Shown here piece after piece: positions 62,141 through 62,218 of a DNA stretch of 64,000 nt (the first letter of the stretch is position 1; each line of letters opens with the position of its first letter). This stretch comes from Mustelus asterias (lineage: Eukaryota). The DNA lies in contig NW_027590264.1 of NCBI RefSeq assembly GCF_964213995.1, positions 1 through 64,000 on the forward strand. The letters run 5' to 3'. The position numbers and the translations under genes were made by a program. The notes under the pieces are model-generated. The model worked only from the letters and a program-made list of their open reading frames with translations. It did no database searches and was not told the DNA's origin.

Positions 62141-62157
62141 AGCGCCCTCTGCTGATC
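62141..62157 (-). promoter_or_regulatory. Putative CTCF-binding element just downstream of the V-RSS
   Basis: Minus strand TCAGCAGAGGGCGC (62155-62142) matches the CTCF core CCASYAGRKGGCRS at all but the first base. It lies 25 bp beyond the nonamer. Confidence 0.6.
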
Positions 62158-62180
62158 ACTAACCGGAACTCCCAGTCTGG

Positions 62181-62218
62181 GGTTTTTGTGCGGGGTTCGC
62201 TACATCTGTACCAGTGTG
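62181..62218 (-). promoter_or_regulatory. V recombination signal sequence (23-type RSS, 22-nt spacer)
   Basis: Heptamer CACACTG (62218-62212), spacer GTACAGATGTAGCGAACCCCGC (22 nt), perfect nonamer ACAAAAACC (62189-62181). Confidence 0.93.

What the first reader, a model, noticed from the sequence alone, without database searches (positions are those of the whole stretch)
62141..62218. RSS-adjacent CTCF motif on a shark TCR V: possible ancient RAG-scanning architecture
Seen: TCAGCAGAGGGCGC lies 25 bp 3' of the nonamer, oriented in the direction of V transcription. Known: D-proximal mouse Igh VH genes such as VH81X have CTCF-binding elements just downstream of the RSS that promote their use during cohesin-driven RAG scanning, whereas mouse Tcra/d V CTCF sites are mostly promoter-associated. 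Inference: the same layout in a cartilaginous-fish TCR V would suggest that loop-extrusion control of V choice dates to early jawed vertebrates. I am not aware of a description in sharks. One motif could be chance.
Basis: partly seen in the sequence, partly recalled or inferred. Interest (0 to 1): 0.75.

Follow-up and report, generated by a model that had tools for sequence, protein, structure and literature searches.

The report
CTCF cassette behind shark TCR-alpha signals
Three families of shark T-cell-receptor alpha gene segments carry a conserved two-part binding motif for the genome-folding protein CTCF just behind their DNA-cutting signal, which likely helps them reach their joining partners as at some mouse receptor genes, but the segments point both ways, so a simple one-way scan is unlikely and binding is untested.

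Summary
The motif is real and not chance. A CTCF core (19.4 bits, p 1.7e-7; matrix recalled) with a likely upstream half-site lies 22 bp behind the nonamer of an intact TCR-alpha V, facing the way the V reads. Among 181 TCR-type V segments sampled in this genome, all 48 in three families (37, 10 and 1 copies) have it at +21 to +23; none of the other 133 has one facing that way. It is one inherited RSS-plus-CTCF cassette, probably swapped between V bodies. The 41 bp behind the nonamer stay 81% identical where motif-less families fall to 52%. Against Igh-type scanning: V genes and motifs point both ways (7+/6- on this contig), I found no strong convergent anchor near the J array, and broken copies keep the motif. 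The closer parallels are mouse Trbv1 and Igk (loop anchoring plus diffusion). Extra observation: 33 of 35 intact motif-bearing V have off-length RSS spacers, against 1 of 107 others. No binding or usage data. Three searches found no shark report in print, but this scan has noted the feature several times, including in this genome.

The parts
62716..62761 (-). Leader exon of the TCR-alpha V gene (46 nt, phase-1 donor)
   Evidence: Sequence; spliced frame open
62219..62522 (-). V exon, TCR alpha/delta type, intact; family K02 in this report
   Evidence: Pfam V-set E 1.4e-16; TCR alpha chains among the hits; family members upstream of a 147-segment J array on C546
62181..62218 (-). RSS: heptamer 62218..62212 (C for G at position 5), 22-bp spacer, consensus nonamer 62189..62181
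62165..62174 (-). Likely CTCF upstream half-site (zinc fingers 9-11): 7 of 10 letters match, 6-bp linker to the core
   Evidence: Consensus from PMC12885311; match counts and 1% background; conserved across 10 lineages
62140..62158 (-). CTCF core motif, 22 bp behind the nonamer, same direction as V transcription
   Evidence: 19.4 bits, p 1.7e-7; 0 of 20,000 shuffles; in 48 of 48 members of three families
63611..63629 (+). Second CTCF core motif, 850 bp upstream of the start codon, opposite orientation; with the RSS site it forms a divergent pair around the gene
   Evidence: 20.3 bits; present in 17 of 25 intact K02 copies and the one K15 copy, 0 of 9 intact K09

Best explanation
This is an inherited RSS-plus-CTCF cassette on three shark TCR-alpha V families: a conserved two-part CTCF motif that is likely bound and likely acts as a loop-extrusion anchor, raising contact between these V segments and the J-alpha recombination centre, where RAG would capture them by short-range diffusion rather than by one-way scanning. 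Shown: motif, fixed position and orientation, restriction to three families, excess conservation, and mixed orientation of the V array. Inferred: CTCF binding (about 0.8); an effect on V choice if bound (about 0.6); the Trbv1/Igk-like mode. In most K02 copies a second, opposite site upstream means that one site faces J whichever way the gene lies.
For: Motif strength. 48 of 48 V in families K02/K02-like, K09 and K15 have it at +21 to +23; 0 of 133 other TCR-type V have a forward hit of 10 bits or more within 150 bp. At matched tail divergence (spacer identity 0.4-0.7, V end about 0.85) the 41 bp behind the nonamer are 81% identical in 15 motif pairs and 52% in 9 motif-less pairs; the next 41 bp are 56% and 43%. 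Across 10 lineages, core positions 4-17 show 7 minority letters in 140 and the low-information edges 13 in 50; the core CpG never varies. The upstream half-site matches 6-9 of 10 letters against a 1% background for 7 or more. The V array holds 42 motifs in 163 kb against 4.1 in shuffles. Mouse Trbv1 has a downstream site whose loss cuts its rearrangement about 6-fold, and it works without scanning (PMC10772921, passages). Igk joins V of both orientations by extrusion plus diffusion (PMC11153149, abstract and Discussion). On C546 all 4 motif-bearing V face the J array.
Against: No occupancy, Hi-C or V-usage data. All copies descend from one cassette, so 48 is not 48 independent cases and the pairs are not independent. 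K02 bodies are closer to motif-less K01 (70% nt) than to K09/K15 (49%), while its last 12 codons and tail are closer to K09/K15 (29-30 of 36 against 23 of 36). That points to an old crossover, so the cassette is younger than the split of the V bodies. The 6-bp linker is as conserved as the motif (4 in 60), which could mean a conversion tract or another factor. All 12 broken K02-type copies with an RSS keep a hit of 12 bits or more, unlike mouse pseudogenes. K09 carries a mismatch at a near-invariant core position (12-14 bits). No V-facing motif at p<1e-5 lies in C546 64-249 kb, and C-alpha and the enhancer were not located. About three quarters of the V segments sampled have no such site.
Confidence: 0.5

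Rival explanations
1. The site is bound but works as a local insulator or barrier between tightly packed V transcription units (blocking read-through, methylation or enhancer cross-talk), with no direct effect on V choice.
For: Sites with the upstream half-site are typical of insulators (PMC12885311, passages). 17 of 25 intact K02 genes are enclosed by a divergent pair. Other families have family-fixed sites elsewhere: about -700, -800, -1700, +500 and +900.
Against: The distance to the nonamer is held to 21-23 bp in 48 of 48 copies, tighter than an insulator needs and like the fixed 17-19 bp of mouse VH (PMC6746451). The site is cut away when the V rearranges.
Confidence: 0.22
2. A neutral passenger: a CTCF-like sequence arose once next to an RSS and spread with the V tail by duplication and crossover; it is unbound, or bound without consequence.
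For: Single origin with signs of tail exchange. Most copies are recent duplicates, some perhaps uncollapsed haplotypes. Broken copies keep it. Sequence next to an RSS hitchhikes in all families.
Against: Excess conservation over motif-less families at matched divergence; variation follows the motif's information content and spares the CpG; two half-sites at a workable spacing; one decayed remnant with a damaged RSS has lost the core (C232:372309).
Confidence: 0.15
3. One reading: an Igh-type impediment for linear RAG scanning, homologous to VH81X-type sites and inherited from the first jawed vertebrates.
For: Same side, orientation and similar distance as mouse and human VH sites (23 bp to the equivalent 14-mer, against 17-19, 19 or 48; PMC6746451). 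Family-linked like VH clans 2/3 (PMC4914699). On C546 the V nearest to J carries the motif, and all 4 motif-bearing V there face J.
Against: On C232 motif-bearing V lie 7+/6- and all motifs 25+/22-, against more than 98% one way at mouse Igh (PMC6746451). Three intact inverted V lie beside the J array. The four heavy-chain-like V seen here lack the site. No link by descent to mammalian VH sites was found.
Confidence: 0.13

Closest known systems
RSS-associated CTCF sites of mouse VH (7183, Q52 and others; clans 2/3, 'A state') and human IGHV (PMC6746451, PMC4914699, passages read)
   Same: Core at a fixed short distance behind the nonamer, on the V's own strand, tied to V family, more conserved than its surroundings, CpG near the 3' end of the core.
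   Different: TCR-alpha V in a shark; 23 bp against 17-19 (mouse) or 19/48 (human); the stretch between nonamer and core is conserved and holds a likely upstream half-site, whereas it is not conserved in mouse; both orientations along the locus; broken copies keep it.
Mouse Trbv1 downstream CTCF element (PMC10772921, passages read)
   Same: A site downstream of a TCR V. In mouse it anchors loops and promotes rearrangement without RAG scanning, and an inverted RSS still works.
   Different: One isolated V-beta in mouse against a multi-copy V-alpha cassette here; its distance to the RSS was not in the passages I saw; function tested there, not here.
Mouse Igk locus (PMC11153149 abstract and Discussion; PMC5859386 passages)
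   Same: V segments and CTCF sites in both orientations, which needs inversional joining.
   Different: Igk sites are mostly intergenic, unrelated to V strand, and its RSSs are strong; here the site flips with its V and the RSS spacers are off-length.
Mouse Tcra/d V array (PMC5859386, Table 2 and text)
   Same: About one CTCF site per V gene; many upstream of promoters, as in families K07 and K08 here.
   Different: RSS-adjacent sites are not listed for Tcra/d, and 129 of 144 mouse sites point to J-C, against no polarity on C232.

Membership tests
RSS-associated CTCF element (VH clan 2/3 type) | Strong CTCF core at a fixed short distance 3' of the nonamer | tested here: met
   +21 to +23 in 48 of 48
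RSS-associated CTCF element (VH clan 2/3 type) | Same orientation as V transcription | tested here: met
   48 of 48 forward
RSS-associated CTCF element (VH clan 2/3 type) | Segregates with V family or clan | tested here: met
   Three families only; related K01 lacks it
RSS-associated CTCF element (VH clan 2/3 type) | Motif more conserved than its flanks | tested here: met
   but the linker is conserved too and the pairs are not independent
RSS-associated CTCF element (VH clan 2/3 type) | Kept on functional V, lost on pseudogenes | tested here: inconclusive
   12 of 12 broken copies keep 12 bits or more, most of them recent; one older remnant lost the core
RSS-associated CTCF element (VH clan 2/3 type) | Bound by CTCF and cohesin in rearranging cells, and needed for V usage | not testable with these tools
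   The 22 listed runs carry no library description and none is on record as RNA
Igh-type linear RAG-scanning architecture | V segments and CTCF sites in one orientation toward D-J | tested here: not met
   C232: V 26+/23-, motif-bearing V 7+/6-, motifs 25+/22-; C546: 3 of 10 V inverted
Igh-type linear RAG-scanning architecture | Convergent anchor sites at the D-J-C end | tested here: inconclusive
   No V-facing hit at p<1e-5 in C546 64-249 kb; an assembly gap lies between V and J, and C-alpha and the enhancer were not found
Two-part CTCF site (core plus upstream motif) | 10-bp upstream motif 2-7 bp (typically 5) before the core | tested here: met
   6-bp linker; 7 of 10 letters in the window, 8 of 10 in K09; background 1% for 7 or more. 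A moderate match only.
Transposon-borne CTCF motif | Dispersed over the genome, away from V genes | tested here: not met
   75 matches to the cassette pattern, none on contigs C1-C70

The most novel reading that the evidence does not exclude
Sharks pair a weakened RSS with a CTCF anchor as one portable cassette. The site makes up for off-length spacers (33 of 35 intact motif-bearing V are 22, 24 or 26 bp; 106 of 107 others are 23 bp), and a divergent pair of sites lets a V be captured in either orientation. Tuning V choice by RSS strength against CTCF anchoring, proposed for mouse Igh versus Igk, would then also operate within a shark TCR-alpha locus, either inherited from early jawed vertebrates or invented independently.
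Probability: 0.25. Interest if true: 0.75.

Novelty: new variant of a known kind. Interest (0 to 1): 0.5.

Why it matters
CTCF control of V choice has been shown only in mammals in the papers I could search. A selected RSS-adjacent site in a cartilaginous fish would extend that design to the earliest-branching group with RAG-based receptors, and to TCR alpha, where mice use promoter-side sites. The locus also offers a natural experiment: near-identical V copies in both orientations, with and without the upstream site, and with 22-, 23- and 24-bp spacers. One thymus repertoire could therefore separate scanning from diffusion and test whether the site compensates for a weaker RSS. Without binding or usage data it remains a sequence-level lead, and this scan has already recorded it several times.

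Tried and rejected
Chance motif: rejected. Dispersed repeat as source: rejected, no cassette match on contigs C1-C70; the 6 of 54 nonamer-plus-motif matches on large contigs were not examined. Independent origin in three families: rejected, the tails are homologous. Looking for the TCR-beta locus or for motifs behind canonical-heptamer RSSs: a recalled D-beta pattern gave 0 matches, an exact RSS-plus-motif pattern 0, and a looser one 4 scattered matches, not examined; these blanks do not show absence. TCR-delta D/J/C and C-alpha were not identified on C546. Expression: no RNA holder listed, which is no evidence either way; no splice or V-J joint appeared in the two same-organism runs laid, whose kind is unknown. 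Nurse shark repertoire paper (PMC5931798, passages and part 1 of 2 of one supplement, junctions only; three other files not read): no CTCF mention in the main text, and I could not match its V families to these. The primary VH81X paper (Jain 2018) is not held; I rely on a review passage (PMC7930373). The PDB search was dominated by scFv chains and only weakly typed the V.

Full report
Observation. The window is the first 64 kb of contig C232 of a 3.68-Gb genome. An intact V gene lies on the minus strand: leader 62761..62716, V exon 62522..62219, heptamer 62218..62212, 22-bp spacer, nonamer 62189..62181. With a CTCF matrix (JASPAR MA0139.1 counts as I recall them; no motif library was available) the 19-mer 62158..62140 scores 19.4 bits, p 1.7e-7, and 0 of 20,000 shuffles of the 150 bp behind the RSS reach that. 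The only other hit at p<1e-5 in the window is at 63611-63629, 850 bp upstream of the same gene and facing the other way.

The locus. The V is Pfam V-set, with at least 38 copies at 82% or more amino-acid identity; some small contigs may be uncollapsed haplotypes. I fetched 120 stretches, most chosen around V or motif hits, so the sample is biased toward this family. On C546, ten V segments (7 plus, 3 minus) at 32-63.5 kb precede 147 J-like segments at 137.6-236.9 kb, all plus, with 12-bp RSSs; a 200-N gap lies between them. This makes it TCR alpha(/delta). C-alpha and the delta segments were not found.

Paralogs. In 1.245 Mb, 189 V-like segments had a recognisable RSS; hits without a 3' end or an RSS were dropped. 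181 are TCR-type with 150 bp of flank. All 48 in families K02/K02-like (37), K09 (10) and K15 (1) have a forward hit of 10 bits or more at +21 to +23. Of the other 133, none has a forward hit and one a reverse hit. Seven V of other kinds (four heavy-chain-like, two light-chain-like, one unplaced) have no forward hit. Genome-wide, a nonamer-plus-motif pattern gave 54 matches, 48 with this cassette, and the control pattern 0; a cassette pattern gave 75, none on contigs C1-C70. It is not a dispersed repeat.

Anatomy. Six bp before the core is a 10-mer that matches the upstream CTCF half-site quoted in PMC12885311 (passages) at 7 of 10 letters here, 8 of 10 in K09 and 6-9 across K02, against a 1% background for 7 or more. 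The V array is CTCF-rich: 42 motifs in 163 kb against 4.1 in shuffles, and none in the first 60 kb of the window. Other families have their own fixed sites (K08 about -700, K07 about -800, K01 about +500 reverse). 17 of 25 intact K02 genes have the upstream reverse site, so they sit inside a divergent pair.

History and selection. On a protein tree K02, K09/K15 and motif-less K01 group together with mixed support (97/57). K02 bodies are 70% identical in DNA to K01 and 49% to K09/K15, but the last 12 codons match K09/K15 better (29-30 of 36 against 23 of 36), and the 41 bp after the nonamer match at 33 of 41 against 18 of 41. Because flanks hitchhike with any RSS, I compared pairs at matched divergence. 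With spacer identity 0.4-0.7, the +0 to +41 window is 81% identical in 15 motif pairs and 52% in 9 motif-less pairs, and the next window 56% and 43% (40 lineages, pairs not independent). Over 10 lineages, core positions 4-17 show 7 minority letters in 140, the edges 13 in 50 and the downstream 25 bp 60 in 250 (partly indels); the linker is also conserved, 4 in 60. Contigs from five other labelled organisms and one unlabelled run align across the cassette. The differences listed fall at core positions 1, 3 and 18 and in the linker, none at core positions 4-17 or in the half-site, but the tables were cut (228 and 26 rows hidden) and these are close relatives.

Results against a simple functional story. 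All 12 broken K02-type copies keep 12 bits or more, whereas mouse pseudogenes typically lack the site (PMC6746451; PMC7930373, passages); one older remnant has lost the core. K09 has a mismatch at a near-invariant position. No V-facing motif at p<1e-5 was found between the V cluster and the end of C546.

Orientation. On C232 V genes lie 26 plus and 23 minus, motif-bearing V 7 and 6, all motifs 25 and 22. Mouse Igh has more than 98% of sites one way (PMC6746451) and scanning uses only deletional V (PMC11153149, abstract). Mouse Trbv1 has a downstream site that anchors loops, is needed for most of its rearrangement and allows inversional joining (PMC10772921, passages). Anchoring plus diffusion therefore fits better than linear scanning. 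The one hint for polarity is that all four motif-bearing V on C546 face J.

RSS spacers. Among 142 intact V, 33 of 35 motif-bearing ones have non-23 spacers (twenty at 22, twelve at 24, one at 26 that the script read as 24), against 1 of 107 others. This is one lineage, but the length changed several times within it. The spacer contains dinucleotide runs, so slippage may explain part of it. A one-base change lowers cleavage only moderately, by a secondary account (PMC7753069, passages). PMC11153149 (Discussion) proposes that weak RSSs go with control by CTCF impediments. Compensation is my inference and is untested.

Novelty. RSS-adjacent CTCF sites are known in mouse and human VH, and two are listed near RSSs in mouse TCR-beta, while Tcra/d sites are upstream or intergenic (PMC5859386, Table 2). 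Three full-text searches (listings only) showed no report for sharks. The library lacks most subscription papers, and unread supplements could bear on this. This scan has noted the feature on other shark DNA and twice in this genome; those notes are unchecked and are not support. Verdict: observation confirmed; a new variant of a known element, probably functional (about 0.8 bound, 0.5 for a role in V choice); 'ancient RAG scanning' is not established. Interest 0.5.

Noticed in passing
G000:C546:137570-236947: About 147 J-alpha-like segments in one orientation, many in tandem-duplicated blocks; more than twice the 61 of mouse (PMC5859386).
   Followed up: partly
G000:C71 (4.7-19.4 Mb) and contigs C87-C210: TCR-alpha V copies, many broken or identical to each other, are scattered over a 20-Mb contig and many 1-3 Mb contigs, with a J copy at C71:18373316; looks like large-scale amplification of locus fragments.
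   Followed up: partly
G000:C232:60-128 kb and 290-385 kb; C546:32-64 kb: V genes of about 13 families lie interspersed in both orientations, in duplicated and inverted blocks, implying frequent inversional rearrangement in shark TCR alpha.
   Followed up: partly
window 63611-63629; C232:66822; C232:355567: Family-fixed CTCF motifs upstream of V promoters (K02 reverse, K07 and K08 forward), resembling the promoter-side sites of mouse Tcra/d.
   Followed up: partly
G000:C546:35716: A K02 copy near the J array has a 26-bp spacer, probably a poor RSS, yet keeps an intact V and both CTCF motifs.
   Followed up: no
G000:C8:50.18-51.08 Mb: 19 identical 12-bp RSSs in both orientations; the two examined belong to light-chain-like V genes with nearby J, with no forward RSS-side CTCF motif.
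   Followed up: partly
window 1-40000: Strongly G-skewed, repeat-rich DNA with many N stretches and no V gene or CTCF motif.
   Followed up: no
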